A DNA stretch of 20,000 bases, taken from NCBI GenBank assembly GCA_043809585.1, contig JBDROZ010000025.1, positions 51,417 to 71,416 on the forward strand. The letters are read 5' to 3'. The notes below the pieces were generated by a model. The model was not told where the DNA came from, ran no database searches, and saw only the letters and a list, made by a program, of their open reading frames with translations. A program made the position numbers and the translations under genes. This document shows positions 2,921 to 9,961 of this stretch, one piece after another. Within the stretch, counting starts at the first letter, position 1. Every line of letters begins with the position of its first letter. The stretch is from Candidatus Eiseniibacteriota bacterium. GTDB taxonomy: Bacteria; Orphanbacterota; Orphanbacteria; Orphanbacterales; Orphanbacteraceae.

Positions 2921-4963
<2,043 letters not shown>

Positions 4964-4997
4964 CGAAGAGCCGGTCGGGTGGTCCTCTCGTCCTAGT

Positions 4998-5547
4998 ACG
5001 GGCGGGGCCTGTCCGGGGCGTGGGTGGGGGGATGGCGGCGCAGACAAGCCGTCCGCGCCTACGCGATCTTCCGATGGCAAACCTCGAACTCAACGGCGCT
5101 CCCGGCAACTCGCCGCTTCATCCCCCCACCCAACACCCCGGCCACCCGCCCGTGGCATGGTATTCTCAACAAGGAATGCCGAATTCAAACCCAGTGATAC
5201 CGTTTGTCCTGAGTAGCTCGTGAACGAAGTGAACGAGCGTATCGAAGCCTGTCCTGAGCCTGTCGAAGGGGGCCGACCGGATCTTCGCAGGGAGGAGAAG
5301 AGAGGCGTCCGCCCACCTGGATCTGCGGAGGTCTGTGGTATTCCTACCGCACCTGCTCCCGGCCACCCGCCCGTGGCAGGGCAATCTCAGCAAGGACTAC
5401 TGACCGGATCTTCGTAGGGAGAGAGAGACGTCCGCCCATCTGGGCGCTCGAAGAAGAGCAGCGTTTGTGCCGCGCGCTGGTTCCCCCCCGTTCGCCCTGA
5501 GTGATCCGACCGGAGGGAGGATCGTATCGAAGGGGGAACCGGGGAGA
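4998..5547 (+). repeat. Left mosaic of structured repeat modules (A-B-C-C'-D-B-D-C)
   Basis: A 5008-5141: long hairpin, GGGTGGGGGGATG...CATCCCCCCACCC. B: CCGGCCACCCGCCCGTGGC...CAAGGA at 5138 and 5359. C: CCGTTYGYCCTGAG...CGTATCGAAG at 5200 and 5488, short form at 5248. D: GACCGGATCTTCG...CGTCCGCCCA at 5275 and 5402. Confidence 0.9.
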
Positions 5548-5596
5548 AGCCCCGGAAGACGCCGATACCATACCTATTGTGATATGGCATGACAAG

Positions 5597-5660
5597 GGGA
5601 CAGACACTCCGCACGCAAGCCATCCAGCCACGCCTCGCACCGGAGCGGAGTGTCTGTCCC
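5597..5660. repeat. REP-like inverted repeat, 16-bp perfect arms
   Basis: GGGACAGACACTCCGC (5597-5612) and GCGGAGTGTCTGTCCC (5645-5660), 32-nt spacer; lies downstream of the minus-strand gene ending at 5735. Confidence 0.85.
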
Positions 5661-5734
5661 GACAAGAGTTGGCAGGCAGGCCGCCCGGGGAGACACAGGT
5701 GCCTGTCGCCGGGTTACCAGTCTAAGATTGCTCT

Positions 5735-7468
5735 TCACCGAAGTAGAATCAGACGCTGGCTCTCGACCTCCTCCCCGTCCTGGAGCCGCACGAAGTAGAC
5801 GCCGGAGGGTGCGCGCCTTCCGGATTGGTCGCGGCCGTCCCACTCAAGAACGTGGCTCCCCCGGCCATAGCGATCGTTCGTGAGCCGCCGCACGAGTCGT
5901 CCACCGATCGAGTAAACATCGAGAGAGACTGATCCCTCGTCGGGAATATCGAAGAGAAGCGTCGAAGCCTCGCGCGCCGGATTCGGATAGAGGAGAAGGG
6001 ATGGCCTTGCGCCACCGGGCAAAGAAGAAATGCCGGTCGTAACCGCCAGGCGTTTGCCCGCGTATAGGTCACGATTGCCTGCGCGTTCGTCCACCCAGAA
6101 GAACAGGGCAGACAGCGAATCCGTTATGAACGGCCGTGGGCGTATTTGATTCTGTTCCGCGCAGCAGATCACCTCCCCGTCGATTGTCCAGAGGGGATTG
6201 CCGGCCCCATCGAGGTACTGGGAGTAGATGTCCATCCCGTTCGTTGTTCCGTTGCGTAGGTCCTCCCAGACGACGAACGCGCCTCCGAGACTATCGCTCT
6301 CGATCACCGGGTTCGCCTGGTACGCCGGGTCCGCGCAGACCGGGATACCGCCTGTTCCCCATAGGGCCTGACCCGCACTATTCAGGCGTTGTGCGTAGAC
6401 GTCCTGGTCGCCCGACAATGACAAGATTATCCAGGAAACGAACGCCCCTCCGGAACCATCGGAGGTAATCGAAGGGGTATAGCTGCCGTATTCACCGAGC
6501 ACAGAGCCTCCCACCAGAAGACCATCGGAATCCCACACGGGACCTGAGACCGGATCGAGCCGCTGGGCATAGACGAACGCCCCGAGGCCGTATTCCGCCC
6601 AATGCCAAACCACATAGGCCCCGCCGAGGCCGTCGCCGATGATCTCCGCATATGAGTATCCCCCGGCATTCCCCAGCCGGCCGATGCGAGCACCGTTTGA
6701 AGGCCATCCGGAAACGCTGTCGCCCGACGCCGTAATGTGTTGCGCATAGACCGAACCCAATTCCTCCCACACGATGAATGCTCCCCCGACCCCGTCGCTC
6801 GTCGTTTGAGGGAGAGCTACAGAGGACCCCACCCGAGTCGAGACTCTGGTGCCAGAGGCCCCCCAAAGCAGGTTTCCGTCCGCATCGACCCGCTGGGCGT
6901 AGATGTCGGTGTCCTGCTCGTTAGGGTGGCTGGAGCGGTAGTCCATCCACGCGACGATCGCTCCGCCGGCACCATCCATGGCCAGAGTTGGTAATATTTG
7001 CGAACTGTCACTATCGCATAACAGGTGGCCGTCTGGAGTCCAGAGTGGTGTTCCCAGAGAGTCGACTCGCTGGGCGTAGATGTTCCAGCCCGCTCCAATC
7101 CGCAAGTCATCCCACACCATGATGGCGCCGCCGTCGCCGTCGCCGATGATCTTATGTTCTTTAGTCGCCCCCCCCGCATTGAATCTGAGATCAGTCGGGG
7201 CCGTACAGATCGGCACGCCGCCGGCCTGCCAGAGAGTGTCCCCGACTGCGTCGATCCGTTGTGCGTAGATATCGAATATCACTCCATCTCGAAAGTCCGG
7301 CCACATGATGATCGCGCCGCCAGCGCCATCGTTCGTTGCATACATCAAGCCTTGTTGCCCCGGCGCGTCGCAGACGACATTCCCGTTCGGTGCCCAATCG
7401 GCGTGCGCGTGGATTCCTGCTACCAGAGTGAGACCAACGGCGAAAACGAGAGAGGGTGATCTGCCCAT
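5735..7468 (-). CDS. Secreted repeat (probable beta-propeller) protein with C-terminal FlgD-Ig/T9SS type A-like domain
   Basis: ATG 7468 with GAGGAG SD; signal peptide ending AHA-D. About seven repeats of DG.GGA...W.D.R....DIYAQR.D..G..LW...G. C-terminus YPNPAR...DVYSIGGRLVRRL...WDGRDQSGRRAPSGVYFVRL. Confidence 0.88.
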   Translation of the reverse strand: MGRSPSLVFAVGLTLVAGIHAHADWAPNGNVVCDAPGQQGLMYATNDGAGGAIIMWPDFRDGVIFDIYAQRIDAVGDTLWQAGGVPICTAPTDLRFNAGGATKEHKIIGDGDGGAIMVWDDLRIGAGWNIYAQRVDSLGTPLWTPDGHLLCDSDSSQILPTLAMDGAGGAIVAWMDYRSSHPNEQDTDIYAQRVDADGNLLWGASGTRVSTRVGSSVALPQTTSDGVGGAFIVWEELGSVYAQHITASGDSVSGWPSNGARIGRLGNAGGYSYAEIIGDGLGGAYVVWHWAEYGLGAFVYAQRLDPVSGPVWDSDGLLVGGSVLGEYGSYTPSITSDGSGGAFVSWIILSLSGDQDVYAQRLNSAGQALWGTGGIPVCADPAYQANPVIESDSLGGAFVVWEDLRNGTTNGMDIYSQYLDGAGNPLWTIDGEVICCAEQNQIRPRPFITDSLSALFFWVDERAGNRDLYAGKRLAVTTGISSLPGGARPSLLLYPNPAREASTLLFDIPDEGSVSLDVYSIGGRLVRRLTNDRYGRGSHVLEWDGRDQSGRRAPSGVYFVRLQDGEEVESQRLILLR

Positions 7469-7641
7469 TGTCTTCTCCTCCCCGAAGGGCGGGTTGCCTC
7501 CGGCCCACGGTCCCTTGCGACACCGACGACTCACCGATATGAATGACTAAAGGGAGGAGATGACCGATGGGACCGGCCAGCACTTCCCCGGGAACAAGGT
7601 CTGGCCACCGCTCAACCACAAGGGTAAACTCGATGTTGTAG

Positions 7642-7670
7642 AGCATATCAGACATGAAGGTGCAGTGCAA
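7642..7670 (-). promoter_or_regulatory. Putative sigma70 promoter of the repeat-protein gene
   Basis: Minus strand TTGCAC (7670-7665), 17-nt spacer, TATGCT (7647-7642). Confidence 0.55.
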
Positions 7671-7759
7671 CACATTGGGGAGCTTGGCCCTGTTCCTAAC
7701 CAGATACCCCATTCCCGCTATTCCTTTCGGAACCAGATACCCCTTCGCATCGGTAAGTT

Positions 7760-7822
7760 CGGGGACGTAGTTCCGTTGCTTCCGTTGACGTGACTTGCGA
7801 GACGAACGGAACTACGTCCCCG
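7760..7822. repeat. REP-like inverted repeat, 18-bp perfect arms
   Basis: CGGGGACGTAGTTCCGTT (7760-7777) and AACGGAACTACGTCCCCG (7805-7822). Confidence 0.85.
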
Positions 7823-7826
7823 GGTC

Positions 7827-8175
7827 GGGGGGAGGACGAGCGCGACACAGACGCTGCTCTTCTCAGAGCGCCCGGGTGGGCGGACGCCTCTTCTTCCCTT
7901 TTCAAACGGGAGTTCGAGGCTCTCCCCGGTTCGCCCTTCGATACGAACCTTCGGTCCTGTTCAGGACGAACGGGATCTCTAAATCCTGTTTCGGCAGTCC
8001 TTGCTGATCATTCCCAGCCACGGGCGGGTGGCCGGGGTGTTGGGTGGGGGGATGAAGCGGCGAGTTGCCGGGAGCGCCGGTGGGCTTCGACCCGGCCATC
8101 GGAAGATCGAGTAGGCGCGGACGGCTTGTCTGAGCCGCCATCCCCCCACCCACGCCCCGGACAGGATCTGCCCGT
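7827..8175 (-). repeat. Right mosaic of repeat modules (A-B-C-D on the minus strand), inverted copy of the left mosaic
   Basis: The reverse complement of 8017-8165 matches 5008-5156 without gaps, differing by two substitutions and one 15-nt variable block. C module at 7921-7973; D module at about 7827-7899. Confidence 0.92.
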
Positions 8176-8203
8176 GCGACTACGACTCAGCCCGAACTCC
8201 CGC

Positions 8204-9961
8204 CTACTTCTTCTTCATCTGCAGCCCGAGGTCATCCAGCAGCGCCGGATCCACATCCGACGGGCAGCCGTCCATGAGAGAGAGCCCGCTCATCGTCTTC
8301 GGAAACGCGATCACGTCCCGGATCGACTCGCCGCCCGTCAGGATCTGCACGATCCGGTCCCAACCGAACGCGATCCCCCCGTGGGGGGGCGCGCCGAATT
8401 TCAGGGAGTTCAGGAGAAACCCGAACCGCCGGTCCTGGTCCTCCCCCTTGATCCCGACAACCTCCATGATCTGCCGCTGCACCTCCGGGTCGTGATTACG
8501 GATCGAACCCGACGCGATCTCCACCCCGTTCAGCACCATGTCGTAGAGATGCCCGTGCACCTTCCCCGGATCGCTCGCGAGGAACTCCGCCTCCTCCTCG
8601 AAAGGCATCGTGAACATGTGGTGCGCCGGCTCCCACCGCTCCTCCTCCTCGCTCCACTCGAAGAGGGGGAACTTGTTCACCCAGAGGAACCGGACCGCCC
8701 CCTTCTCCGCGAGATCGAGGCGCCGCCCCACCTCCACCCGGACCGCGCCGAGAGAAGTGAGCGCCTTCTTCCACGGCCCGGCGATCATGAGAACCAGGTC
8801 CCCCTCCTTCGCGCCGAGGGCCCCCGTCAGCTTTTCGAAGTCGAAGAACTTCCCGACGCCGCCGTCGAACCCCCCCCCTTTCACCCGGGTCCACGCCAGA
8901 CCGTGGGCGCCATGTTTCTTGGCGAGCTCTTCGAGCGTGTCGATCTCCTTACGGGAGAACGACGCCCCTCCCGACACCACGAAGCCCCGTACCGCCCCGT
9001 CCTTCCCTTCCAGCACCCCGTGAAACGCCTTGAACTCCGACGCCCGCGCCGCCTCGTCGAGGTTCACCAGATCCAAATCGAACCGGACGTCCGGCTTGTC
9101 GCTCCCGTACCGCTCCATCGCCTCGTGATAGTTCAGGATCGGGATGGGAGTCGGTATGTCGACACCGAGCGTCTCCTTCCAGACCGCCGCCATCAACCCT
9201 TCCATGATGCGGAAGACCTCAGCCTCCGTCGTGAAGGAGATCTCGATGTCGATCTGCGTGAACTCCGGCTGCCGGTCCGCGCGGAGGTCCTCGTCCCGGA
9301 GACACTTGGCGAGCTGGAAGTAACGGTCGAAGCCGGAGATCATCAGGATCTGCTTGTAGATCTGGGGGGACTGGGGGAGGGAGTAGAACTTCCCCGGATG
9401 AACGCGGCTCGGCACGAGGTAGTCCCGCGCCCCCTCCGGCGAGTTCCGGACGAGAAGGGGCGTCTCGATCTCGAGGAAGCCGCGATCGACGAGGTAGCGC
9501 CGGACCGCCTGGGAGGCGACGCTTCTCTGGACGATGCGCCGGGACATCACCTCCCGCCGGAGGTCGAGGAAGCGGTACGTGAGGCGCATCTCGTCGGTGG
9601 CGTCCACCTCCTCCTCGATGACGAAGGGGGGCGTCTCGGAGCGGTTCAGCACCCGGAGCTCCGACGCCACCACCTCGACGCCGCCGGTCGGCAGGTTCTT
9701 GTTGCGGAGCCCCTCGGGGCGCTCCCGGACCTTCCCGGCCACGGCGACCACGTACTCCCTCTTCAACTCCCTCGCTTCGCCGAGATCGACCGGGCCGTCC
9801 GGCTCGAACACCACCTGCGTCAGGCCGAACCGGTCCCGGAGGTCGAAGAAGAAGATGCCGCCCTGATCCCGCATTCGGTGGACCCATCCCATGAGCACCA
9901 CCTCTTCCCCGGCGTGCCCGGCCCGTAGCTCTCCGCAGTTGTGGGTTCGGGTCCCTTTCAT
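8204..9961 (-). CDS. aspS: Aspartate--tRNA ligase, bacterial type with GAD insertion
   Basis: RTHNCGEL, GWVHRMRD, YRFLDLRR, EGARDYLVPSR, LPQSPQ, RDEDLRADRQPEFTQID, GAPPHGGIAFGWDR and IRDVIAFPKT. ATG 9961 overlaps the hisS stop (ATGA). Confidence 0.98.
   Translation of the reverse strand: MKGTRTHNCGELRAGHAGEEVVLMGWVHRMRDQGGIFFFDLRDRFGLTQVVFEPDGPVDLGEARELKREYVVAVAGKVRERPEGLRNKNLPTGGVEVVASELRVLNRSETPPFVIEEEVDATDEMRLTYRFLDLRREVMSRRIVQRSVASQAVRRYLVDRGFLEIETPLLVRNSPEGARDYLVPSRVHPGKFYSLPQSPQIYKQILMISGFDRYFQLAKCLRDEDLRADRQPEFTQIDIEISFTTEAEVFRIMEGLMAAVWKETLGVDIPTPIPILNYHEAMERYGSDKPDVRFDLDLVNLDEAARASEFKAFHGVLEGKDGAVRGFVVSGGASFSRKEIDTLEELAKKHGAHGLAWTRVKGGGFDGGVGKFFDFEKLTGALGAKEGDLVLMIAGPWKKALTSLGAVRVEVGRRLDLAEKGAVRFLWVNKFPLFEWSEEEERWEPAHHMFTMPFEEEAEFLASDPGKVHGHLYDMVLNGVEIASGSIRNHDPEVQRQIMEVVGIKGEDQDRRFGFLLNSLKFGAPPHGGIAFGWDRIVQILTGGESIRDVIAFPKTMSGLSLMDGCPSDVDPALLDDLGLQMKKK

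What the first reader, a model, noticed from the sequence alone, without database searches (positions are those of the whole stretch)
5008..5156. Module A: 149-nt fold-back element placed just after stop codons, with a fixed-length 15-nt variable window
Seen: each copy folds on itself (CCGGGG..TGGGTGGGGGGATG..GCGGC pairing with GCCGC..CATCCCCCCACCCA..CCCCGG). The two copies differ by only two substitutions outside one block, AAACCTCGAACTCAA versus CGGGTCGAAGCCCAC, both exactly 15 nt. The wider homology starts about 35 nt after the yyaL stop and about 29 nt after the aspS stop, in the same sense relative to transcription. Inference: a conserved scaffold with a variable cassette suggests a structured ncRNA or 3'-UTR element; speculatively the variable block could be a guide/spacer-like segment. 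Two copies cannot settle this.
Basis: partly seen in the sequence, partly recalled or inferred. Interest (0 to 1): 0.7.

Follow-up and report, generated by a model that had tools for sequence, protein, structure and literature searches.

The report
Dispersed hairpin repeat behind gene ends
The fold-back is one of 15 copies of a non-coding hairpin repeat that fills the gaps behind genes in this uncultured bacterium; it looks like REP/REPIN-type selfish repeat DNA, not a guide RNA.

Summary
Two inverted copies of a very stable fold-back sit just after the stop codons of the DUF255/yyaL gene and aspS, and they differ mainly in a 15-nt apical block. The real element is longer than reported: 4998-5181 (+) and 8175-7992 (-), a hairpin of about 156 nt plus a conserved 3' tail of about 28 nt.

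The genome holds 15 copies. The block has a consensus (4 of 11 copies identical), so it is a drifting hairpin apex and not a cassette or guide.

Module A shares its basal stem and tail with a second, ~201-205-nt family (B). That family has about 33 full or internally deleted copies, plus solo tails. B's paired arms also occur as ~105-nt hairpins in three genomes of a sister genus.

Both families show compensatory base changes. Nothing matched in Rfam. There are no terminal inverted repeats at the true ends and no target duplications. None of 10 Y1 transposase loci has the repeat beside it.

Elements point their 5' end at the nearest ordinary gene in 39 of 43 cases. In 4 of 8 relatives yyaL and aspS lie 18-76 nt apart, against 3240 nt here.

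Verdict: a lineage-specific REP/REPIN/BIME-like repeat with an unidentified mobiliser. No RNA role was shown. Earlier notes of this scan describe other REP-like families in this genome, but not this one.

The parts
4998..5181 (+). Module A, copy 1. Fold-back 4998-5153 (basal stem, long G-rich/C-rich stem, apex), then the unpaired 3' tail 5154-5181. The tail of this copy is diverged.
5079..5093 (+). The 15-nt 'variable block', which is the apex of the hairpin. This copy is an outlier from the family consensus.
7992..8175 (-). Module A, copy 2, with a consensus tail. Its closest relative is the copy on contig C57 (97% identity), not copy 1 (89%).
5358..5403 (+). Solo fragment: the end of the right arm plus the tail. 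Without the rest of A or B it is one of 37 such hits outside A copies.
   Evidence: (D2, I4).
2921..4963 (+). DUF255/thioredoxin-domain gene ('yyaL'). Its stop lies 25-34 nt before copy 1.
8204..9928 (-). aspS (aspartyl-tRNA synthetase). Its stop lies 19-28 nt before copy 2.
5735..7534 (-). 599-aa ORF with a FlgD_ig / T9SS C-terminal sorting domain and an atypical GC3 of 0.69. It lies between the two copies inside the lineage-specific 3.2-kb insert.
5183..5734 (.). Mosaic of other short repeat modules on the tail side of copy 1. It includes module H (conserved flanks around a covarying GC hairpin).
   Evidence: (I3, I6).
7535..7991 (.). Mosaic of other short repeat modules on the tail side of copy 2. 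The module order differs from the mosaic beside copy 1.

Best explanation
Module A is a non-coding, hairpin-forming dispersed DNA repeat of the REP/REPIN/BIME/MITE kind, specific to this lineage.

It is a derived member of a modular superfamily. The members share a basal stem (a 9-nt ACGGGCRGG motif paired with its complement) and, in this genome, a ~22-nt 3' tail. They differ in what sits on top of that stem:
- a long G/C-rich hairpin in A;
- two ~50-nt covarying arms plus a ~75-nt variable apex in B;
- almost nothing in the internally deleted 'mini-B'.

Inferred mechanism. The element is copied or moved as a folded single strand by a structure-recognising enzyme that is not encoded beside it. 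That would explain why the pairing is kept by compensatory changes, why the apex drifts at constant length, why insertions and swaps happen at the apex or just before the tail, and why there are no terminal inverted repeats or target duplications. Copies survive where they do little harm, mainly just behind genes.

The '15-nt variable window' is the relaxed hairpin apex. Any effect on the upstream mRNA (3'-end protection, pausing) would be a by-product and was not tested.

Shown: repeat family, structure, covariation, distribution, polarity, and lineage-specific insertion at this locus. Inferred: mobility, its single-strand mechanism, and selfishness.
For: Copies:
- 15 copies longer than 100 nt lie on 14 contigs.
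- The tail motif occurs 40 times (up to 2 mismatches) in this genome and 0 times in the 9 other genomes of the phylum that are held.
- Exact 20- and 21-mers of the tail and the A core gave one match each in genome contigs and metagenome contigs. Both lie inside coding sequence and are unrelated.

Superfamily:
- nhmmer found 43 left-end and 54 right-end hits.
- 35 left/right pairs were formed. Two of them, on C64 and C101, are joined to an A copy. The other 33 comprise 29 full copies of 198-205 nt and 4 internally deleted copies of 112-116 nt.

Structure:
- A: 47 consensus pairs, 96.3% of cells paired, 7 pairs with changes on both sides. 0 of 500 shuffles reach this; slid controls give 1-4 such pairs.
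- B: 32 pairs, 97.4% paired, 12 pairs and 65 cells with changes on both sides. 0 of 500 shuffles reach this; slid controls give 1-5.

Apex: identity is 0.69 in the block against 0.93-0.96 in the arms, and the length is constant in subfamily 1.

Chimeras and nested forms:
- C64 is a B element with the A core inside its right arm.
- C46 has an extra hairpin module before the tail.
- C39 has an insert of about 190 nt before the tail.

Age: B arms occur as hairpins of about 105 nt, without the tail, in all 3 genomes of a sister genus (15, 40 and 22 BLAST matches). They were found in 0 of 5 genomes of four other genera.

Locus history:
- aspS and yyaL are convergent neighbours 18-76 nt apart in 4 of 8 relatives, against 3240 nt here.
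- The orthologue of the gene upstream of the C86 copy has no such element behind it in 2 relatives.

Placement:
- 33 of 48 elements are co-oriented with the gene on their 5' side.
- 18 of 48 start within 45 nt of a co-oriented stop codon.
- In 39 of 43 the 5' end is nearer to a high-GC3 gene than the tail is (median 84 against 582 nt).

Literature:
- REPINs show conserved arms, a less conserved spacer of fixed length, compensatory changes and an asymmetric tail (PMC3116915, passages).
- REPs lie predominantly downstream of coding regions, between unidirectional and convergent ORFs, and CGTC-type REPs lack a dedicated transposase (PMC3733652, abstract).
Against: - No mobilising enzyme was found. 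None of the 10 Y1_Tnp loci examined in 6 genomes has A/B arms within about 1.5 kb, although the positive controls were detected.
- The RAYT-like gene on C51 is flanked by a different repeat family.
- The IS110-family element is not next to A or B.
- No TnpB-type zinc-ribbon domain was found in the genome.
- No empty site, excision product or population polymorphism was seen. The public contigs were too fragmented to show one.
- The sense bias and the closeness to stop codons are more than a purely neutral 'safe haven' model needs. They would also fit a selected role in the upstream transcript.
- Copies of one family share ancestry, so counts of compensated cells overstate the number of independent events.
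- Arm-to-arm correction inside a palindrome could also keep the pairing.
- Gene calls behind the placement statistics come from my own crude GC3-based caller.
Confidence: 0.68

Rival explanations
1. A selected 3'-UTR RNA element. The hairpin is transcribed with the upstream gene and serves as a 3'-end protector, processing site, pause or terminator. The repeat family has spread because it carries this function. This is not exclusive with a mobile origin.
For: - 18 of 48 elements start within 45 nt of a co-oriented stop codon, and 33 of 48 are co-oriented (p = 0.013).
- Only 2 of these 18 (C42, C105) have a terminator-like hairpin with a T run in the 70 nt before them, so most could be reached by the upstream transcript.
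- The fold is very stable and covarying.
- Di Nocera et al. state that many REPs are plausibly transcribed and act as RNA elements (PMC3733652, abstract).
Against: - No T run follows the hairpin, and the scan found no terminator-like site at either copy.
- 15 of 48 elements face the other way.
- G-U and A-C departures in the helices are about equal (about 9 against 11 cells in A, 8 against 7 in B, read), so there is no strand-specific RNA signature.
- In A the antisense strand folds more stably than the sense strand in 15 of 15 copies.
- Relatives manage the same genes without the element.
- No expression data exist.
Confidence: 0.17
2. Hairpin ends or recombination sites of gene cassettes. 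In this reading A/B elements mark, or create, the borders of inserted blocks that carry accessory genes. This would resemble integron attC sites or the ends of a fold-back transposon.
For: - In 39 of 43 cases the 5' end faces the nearest high-GC3 gene, and other repeats or low-GC3 ORFs lie on the tail side.
- Neighbouring pairs within 3.1 kb are 5 convergent (tails inward), 1 tandem and 0 divergent.
- Three of the pairs (C25, C112, C97) enclose low-GC3 ORFs with signal-peptide-like N-termini. Some of these ORFs are paralogues of each other.
- In the C112 and C97 pairs one partner is not behind a stop codon.
- The whole 3.2-kb block in the window is absent from relatives.
Against: - The two window copies are only 89% identical, and copy 2 is 97% identical to a copy on another contig.
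- In 3 of 5 pairs the partners are different types of element.
- No target duplication flanks the block.
- Most elements are single.
- The module order on the two sides differs.
- Convergent pairs also arise if each element independently settles, in sense, behind convergent genes.
- No integrase or recombinase is linked.
Confidence: 0.08
3. Guide-bearing non-coding RNA. The fixed-length variable block would be a programmable guide or spacer read by a nuclease or recombinase, as in the omega RNAs of TnpB or the bridge RNAs of IS110.
For: - A fixed-length block flanked by a conserved scaffold.
- B has two much more variable blocks around a conserved 17-nt motif.
- IS110-family genes exist in the genome.
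Against: - The A block has a consensus shared by 4 of 11 copies, with mutation-like departures.
- Only 1 of 12 13-mers of copy 1's block recurs in the genome, below the rate in shuffles.
- No TnpB-type domain was found.
- The IS110-type element does not lie next to any A/B copy.
- The apical parts of B fold differently in each copy.
- No Rfam match.
Confidence: 0.03

Closest known systems
REPINs (REP doublets forming hairpins) of Pseudomonas and Enterobacteria, mobilised by RAYT tyrosine transposases (Bertels and Rainey 2011, PMC3116915)
   Same: - Dispersed extragenic hairpins, tens of copies per genome.
- Conserved arms, a less conserved spacer of fixed length, and compensatory changes.
- An asymmetric single-stranded tail.
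- Persistence in a lineage: here at least two genera.
- Clusters with other repeats.
   Different: - About twice as long: about 156 nt of hairpin plus a 28-nt tail, against roughly 70-110 nt.
- Not built from two recognisable 20-40-nt REPs.
- None of the 10 Y1_Tnp loci examined is flanked by it.
- The genome's RAYT-like gene is flanked by another family.
- Strong polarity towards the neighbouring gene.
REP/BIME mosaics of E. coli and the GTAG/CGTC-tagged REP super-families (Di Nocera et al. 2013, PMC3733652, abstract read)
   Same: - Placement mostly downstream of coding regions, between convergent or unidirectional genes.
- Mosaic arrays in which several module types follow each other.
- Some families have no dedicated transposase.
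   Different: - The unit is far longer than 20-40 nt.
- The base before the stem is only weakly conserved ([A/C]-G-[T/C]) and does not fit GTAG or CGTC in most copies.
- The linker and tail modules are unrelated in sequence.
Bacterial MITE-like repeats such as Correia/NEMIS, ERIC/IRU, RUP and YPAL (Delihas 2008, PMC2229807, abstract and outline read)
   Same: - Size class of 100-200 nt.
- Whole-length imperfect palindrome.
- Intergenic and often co-transcribed.
- Internally deleted and chimeric variants.
   Different: - No terminal inverted repeats at the true ends, because the 3' tail has no mirror at the 5' end.
- No target-site duplication.
- No related full-length insertion sequence in the genome.
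Integron attC sites
   Same: - Imperfect hairpins that follow ORFs in the same sense.
- Structure conserved rather than sequence, with a variable central part.
- One strand folds better than the other: in A the antisense strand, 15 of 15 copies.
   Different: - Copies are scattered over 14 contigs, behind housekeeping genes such as aspS, and are not in an array.
- No integron integrase context.
- The attC core-site motifs are recalled from memory; I did not look for them and did not test them formally.

Membership tests
REPIN-RAYT system | Two inverted conserved repeat units separated by a less conserved spacer of fixed length, together forming a hairpin; compensatory changes are common | tested here: met
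   for A; for B. Definition taken from PMC3116915.
REPIN-RAYT system | The same repeat flanks a single-copy Y1 (RAYT) transposase gene | tested here: not met
   0 of 10 Y1_Tnp loci in 6 genomes have A/B arms within about 1.5 kb, and the 3 control loci were detected. No basal-stem 9-mer lies near the C51 gene and one lies near the C96 gene. The C51 gene is flanked by another family.
GTAG/CGTC-tagged REPs | An unpaired GTAG or CGTC tetranucleotide at one end of a 20-40-nt palindrome | tested here: not met
   The left flank is [A/C]-G-[T/C]. A GTAG that directly abuts the stem is seen in only a few copies (for example C18b and C111). The unit length is about 156-205 nt.
MITE (cut-and-paste DDE type) | Terminal inverted repeats at the element ends, flanked by a target-site duplication | tested here: not met
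   Information content drops sharply after the tail, which has no inverted partner at the 5' end. No direct repeats flank 35 B elements or the 15 A copies.
MITE (any type) | A related autonomous element with the same ends in the same or a related genome | tested here: not met
   The orphan left ends are truncated elements and not IS ends. Self-BLAST finds no multi-copy IS, only two-copy stretches of 85-93% identity.
IS200/IS605-derived palindrome-associated elements | Subterminal hairpins, a conserved target tetranucleotide at the left flank, and a TnpA(Y1) or TnpB partner | tested here: inconclusive
   No TIR and no TSD, which fits. The left flank is only weakly conserved. No TnpB-type domain was found. 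Y1 genes are present but not linked.
Intrinsic terminator | A GC-rich hairpin directly followed by a T run | tested here: not met
   No T run follows either copy. No terminator-like site was found at the element.
Any Rfam RNA family | Covariance-model score at or above the family's gathering threshold | tested here: not met
   0 matches at gathering score in the window. Only chance-level matches (E of 0.49 or more) in 4900-8300 and in 7 A/B loci.
Integron attC | An array of cassettes next to an intI gene; R''/L''-L'/R' core sites | not tested
   Copies are dispersed on 14 contigs behind unrelated genes, which argues against an array. No search for intI or for the core sites was run.
Guide RNA of TnpB or IS110 (omega RNA, bridge RNA) | Encoded within or next to the nuclease or recombinase gene; guide segments differ freely between copies and match targets | tested here: not met
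   No TnpB-type domain. IS110-family loci have no A/B hit nearby, except a sub-threshold hit on C4 about 750 nt from a B copy. The block has a consensus.

The most novel reading that the evidence does not exclude
A/B elements are a new kind of polar, hairpin-shaped border or recombination site. They sit with a fixed end against resident genes. DNA accumulates or is captured on their tail side, including low-GC genes for secreted proteins such as the T9SS-tailed ORF in the window. This would make them a dispersed, integron-attC-like or fold-back-transposon-like system for gene insertion, run by an enzyme that is not a RAYT.
Probability: 0.08. Interest if true: 0.7.

Novelty: new member of a known kind. 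Interest (0 to 1): 0.3.

Why it matters
The finding shows that a little-known candidate phylum (Eisenbacteria according to earlier notes of this scan, which I did not verify) carries a rich, modular population of structured intergenic repeats. It has REPIN-like evolutionary behaviour but no RAYT partner.

Practical consequences:
- It explains why intergenic gaps here are ten to a hundred times longer than in sister genera.
- It warns annotators against reading these hairpins as riboswitches, sRNAs or guide RNAs.
- It provides a well-defined family for searching out the enzyme that moves RAYT-less palindromic repeats. That question is also open for the CGTC-type REPs (PMC3733652, abstract). The family offers two architectures, compensatory variation, a defined polarity, and a simpler ancestral form in a sister genus.

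If the polarity and the enclosed low-GC genes reflect a capture mechanism, the finding would be more than ordinary selfish DNA.

Tried and rejected
- **RNA evidence.** The look-up of sequencing runs listed 3 DNA metagenome runs of one study and no RNA holder.
- **Laying contigs.** Laying the three runs' contigs on 4300-8700 gave only short pieces (151-324 nt) and repeat-induced joints. There was no bridging contig and no empty site.
- **k-mer test of the variable blocks against the genome.** 13-mers are too common in a 66% GC genome (16-28% of shuffled words also occur), and sibling copies inflate the counts. Only the statement about copy 1's own block is used.
- **Second synteny test (C86 locus).** The downstream gene is not a neighbour in relatives, so no gap lengths could be compared. 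Only the absence of the element behind the orthologue could be read.
- **Coding reading of B.** One reverse frame reads through about 45 codons in most copies. However, the residues that change are the ones that covary with the opposite arm, stops follow at varied places, and no start or RBS is conserved. Rejected as a gene.
- **Terminator targeting.** A hairpin with a T run lies within 70 nt upstream in 6 of 48 elements. The rate is 375 of 2969 behind all stops, so there is no enrichment.
- **Composite-transposon reading of the window pair.** See the rival explanation; the two copies are not each other's closest relatives.
- **Apex of B.** No common fold among 29 copies.
- **Profile search in relatives.** A DNA alignment is not accepted by the genome search, so a single B copy was used instead.
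- **Covariance model.** I did not build a covariance model and did not run R-scape (not available).
- **Weak match in G008.** One 38-nt match of module A in G008 (E 9.5e-5) was not followed up.

Full report
**1. What is there**

The window holds two inverted copies of a long fold-back. The repeat finder gives arms 4988-5078/8095-8185 and 5091-5183/7990-8082 at 90-91% complementarity.

Read against all genomic copies, the element runs from 4998 to 5181 on the + strand and from 8175 to 7992 on the - strand. It has four parts: a basal stem, a long G-rich/C-rich stem, an apex, and an unpaired, conserved 3' tail of about 28 nt.

Copy 1 folds as RNA at -95.2 kcal/mol (z -4.89) and copy 2 at -90.8 kcal/mol (z -3.61). 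As DNA, copy 1 folds at -58.1 kcal/mol (z -6.02). No shuffle folds as well.

Both blocks keep a TCGAA core.

Copy 1 follows the stop of a DUF255/thioredoxin gene ('yyaL', 2921-4963). Copy 2 follows the stop of aspS (8204-9928). Each is in the sense of its gene. By the repeat finder the homology begins 25 and 19 nt after the stops.

**2. Copy number and the 'variable window'**

BLAST against the whole assembly (4.24 Mb, 123 contigs, 66% GC) finds 15 copies longer than 100 nt on 14 contigs. Three of them (C37, C101, C3) form a subfamily with a different centre. One (C64) lacks the left end.

Among the 11 remaining copies, mean pairwise identity is:
- 0.93 in the left arm;
- 0.96 in the right arm;
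- 0.79 in the apical 35 columns;
- 0.69 in the 15-nt block.

Four of the 11 carry the identical block. Most others depart from it by 1-4 bases. Window copy 1 and the C46 copy are outliers that resemble each other. The block length is constant.

So the block is the fast-drifting apex of a hairpin, not a cassette. Only 1 of 12 13-mers of copy 1's block recurs in the genome, which is below the rate in shuffles.

**3. A larger family**

The last ~20 nt of the right arm plus the tail also occur outside A: 52 hits in all, 15 inside A copies and 37 outside. Most of the 37 turned out to be the 3' end of a second element, here called B.

B is 198-205 nt long and begins with the same 9-nt basal-stem motif as A. 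It then has:
- a left arm of about 50 nt;
- an apical part of about 75 nt, made of a variable block, a conserved 17-nt motif and a second variable block;
- a right arm of about 50 nt;
- the same basal-stem complement and the same tail.

nhmmer with profiles of the two ends finds 43 left-end and 54 right-end hits. From these, 35 left/right pairs were formed. Two pairs (C64, C101) are joined to an A copy. Of the other 33, 29 are full copies and 4 are internally deleted 'mini-B' copies of 112-116 nt. Several truncated orphans also exist.

Chimeras and nested forms exist:
- C64 is a B element that carries the A core inside its right arm.
- C46 is an A copy with another hairpin module inserted before the tail.
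- C39 is a B copy with about 190 nt inserted at the same place.

Information content falls sharply after the tail and about 3 nt before the basal stem. No direct repeats flank the elements. The tail has no mirror at the 5' end, so there are neither true terminal inverted repeats nor target duplications.

**4. Structure is under constraint**

- A (15 sequences): RNAalifold predicts 47 pairs and 96.3% of cells pair. Seven pairs have changes on both sides. 0 of 500 column shuffles reach this, and slid controls give 1-4.
- B (29 sequences): 32 pairs and 97.4% paired. Twelve pairs and 65 cells have changes on both sides. 0 of 500 shuffles reach this, and slid controls give 1-5. One three-pair stretch of the B stem occurs in four different complementary versions.

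These counts are of sequences, not events, and the copies share ancestry. Still, several distinct compensated versions are present.

The signal is not strand-specific. G-U and A-C departures are about equal in both families (my count). B folds equally well on both strands. A folds better on the antisense strand in 15 of 15 copies, a property of the family consensus.

The apical part of B has no common fold. One reverse frame of B is open for about 45 codons, but the varying residues are the covarying stem positions. I reject a coding role.

**5. Known families**

- Rfam gives nothing at gathering score, and only chance-level matches at E of 0.49 or more.
- No tRNA or tmRNA gene.
- No terminator-like site at either copy.
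- The genome has two Y1_Tnp genes. The RAYT-like one on C51 is flanked by a different repeat family of 41-47 copies. Neither has A/B sequence nearby.
- Across six genomes of the family, 0 of 10 Y1_Tnp loci have A/B arms within about 1.5 kb, while three control loci were detected.
- An IS110-family element (two copies, 87% identical) and DDE transposase genes exist but are not next to A or B. No TnpB-type domain was found.
- Self-BLAST shows no multi-copy insertion sequence.

**6. Distribution**

Module A:
- It gave no real match in 40 other genomes. One 38-nt match at E 9.5e-5 was seen.

Tail motif:
- It occurs 40 times in this genome and 0 times in the 9 other genomes of the phylum that are held.
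- Exact words of the tail and of the A core gave one chance match each, inside coding sequence, in the species-level genome collection and the metagenome collection. That tool notes that records of this genome or of a very near one may be left out.

B copies in relatives:
- A B copy finds its two arms, side by side and without the tail, in all three genomes of a sister genus. BLAST matches number 15, 40 and 22; the arms score separately and at most 40 candidates were scored.
- It finds none in five genomes of four other genera.
- In the sister genus the element is a hairpin of about 105 nt with a 5-9-nt apex, and its stem again shows compensated versions.

So the hairpin family predates this genus. 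The tail, the long apex of B and the A core are additions found only in this genome among those searched.

**7. Placement**

Gene calls come from a crude GC3-based caller of my own (3000 calls, 86% of the assembly). With these calls:
- 33 of 48 A/B elements are co-oriented with the gene on their 5' side and 15 are not (binomial p = 0.013).
- 18 of 48 begin within 45 nt of a co-oriented stop codon.
- In two copies the TAG stop directly abuts the element.
- In 39 of 43 elements with called genes on both sides, the 5' end is nearer to a high-GC3 gene than the tail is (median 84 against 582 nt; sign test p = 3e-8).
- Neighbouring pairs within 3.1 kb are 5 convergent, 1 tandem and 0 divergent.
- Terminator-like hairpins upstream are no more frequent than behind any gene: 6 of 48 against 375 of 2969.

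On the tail side lie other repeat modules and, in about 9 of 31 long gaps, ORFs with low GC3 (0.61-0.77) and signal-peptide-like N-termini. Some of these ORFs are paralogous. Pfam finds a right-handed beta-helix in one and nothing in most.

**8. History of the window locus**

In 4 of 8 relatives of the same family, aspS and the DUF255 gene are convergent neighbours 18-76 nt apart. In a fifth they are 642 nt apart. Here the gap is 3240 nt (4964-8203).

In order, the gap holds: A(+); a mosaic of other modules; a 599-aa ORF with a T9SS sorting domain and a GC3 of 0.69; another mosaic; and A(-). The whole block is therefore a lineage-specific addition.

The two A copies are not sisters. They are 89% identical to each other, while copy 2 is 97% identical to the C57 copy. 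The module order differs on the two sides, and no duplication flanks the block. I therefore favour separate arrivals over a single composite unit, but I cannot exclude the latter.

**9. Interpretation**

The pattern is that of REP/REPIN/BIME-type repeat DNA. Passages of Bertels and Rainey describe conserved arms, a less conserved spacer whose length and pairing matter, common compensatory changes and an asymmetric tail (PMC3116915). The abstract of Di Nocera et al. describes placement downstream of genes, between convergent and unidirectional ORFs, and families without a dedicated transposase (PMC3733652). Delihas reviews MITE-like repeats of this size (PMC2229807, abstract and outline only).

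Module A differs from these in four ways: its length, the shared-scaffold and swappable-top architecture, the lack of a RAYT partner, and its marked polarity towards genes.

I commit to a non-autonomous repeat propagated as a folded single strand by an unidentified enzyme (0.68). A selected role in the upstream transcript is the main rival or add-on (0.17). A cassette-border role (0.08) and a guide RNA (0.03) are less likely. The remaining probability is unassigned.

**10. Earlier notes and literature**

Earlier notes of this scan on other windows of the same genome describe other REP-like hairpin arrays and an 'inverted-repeat cassette'.

A full-text search for Eisenbacteria together with 'repetitive' or 'palindromic' listed no paper on this phylum among its top eight. 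I ran no further search, so I do not claim that the family is absent from print.

Noticed in passing
window 4964-8203: The aspS-DUF255 gap is 3240 nt here but 18-76 nt in 4 of 8 family relatives. The inserted block carries a 599-aa ORF (5735-7534, - strand) with a T9SS sorting domain and an atypically low GC3 of 0.69.
   Followed up: partly
window 5205-5250 and 7925-7965; many contigs: Module H is another dispersed repeat. It has conserved flanks (a GTCCTGAGTAG-like left side and a GTATCGAAGG-like right side) around a GC hairpin whose stem differs between copies while staying complementary.
   Followed up: no
G000:C51:15669-15995 (L011): A RAYT-like Y1 transposase gene is flanked on both sides by a different palindromic repeat family with 41-47 genomic copies. 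This looks like a classical REP-RAYT pair in the same genome.
   Followed up: partly
G000:C112:1581-2723, C60:15080-16267, C97:17812-19437, C87:64376-64720, C58:1849-2892, C52:69433-70200, C46:6292-7011: ORFs with low GC3 (0.61-0.77) and signal-peptide-like N-termini lie on the tail side of A/B elements. Two pairs are paralogous. Pfam finds a right-handed beta-helix in one, a sub-threshold pectate-lyase-like match in its paralogue, a weak sub-threshold match (AMPK1_CBM, E 0.0043) in a third, and nothing in the other five of the eight scanned.
   Followed up: partly
about 10 of 48 elements, e.g. L055, L060, L061; also C57 before an A copy: About ten elements are preceded by a further shared module. 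It is a short GC hairpin with a TTT run, followed by a conserved stretch of about 20 nt that ends in AGT directly at the element's 5' end.
   Followed up: no
G000:C104:6756 and C18:41320: In two B copies the upstream gene's TAG stop codon directly abuts the element's 5' end, as if the insertion had supplied or replaced the end of the gene.
   Followed up: no
G000:C23:33783-35479 and C82:18608-20299: A roughly 1.7-kb IS110-family element is present in two copies at 87% identity, one of them with an in-frame TGA. Several other two-copy stretches of 85-93% identity at contig ends suggest that the assembly mixes two strains.
   Followed up: no
L110 (G007), L111 (G008), L112 (G004): The sister genus carries the B arms as a plain hairpin of about 105 nt with a 5-9-nt apex and no tail, in tens of copies, sometimes in tandem.
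   Followed up: partly
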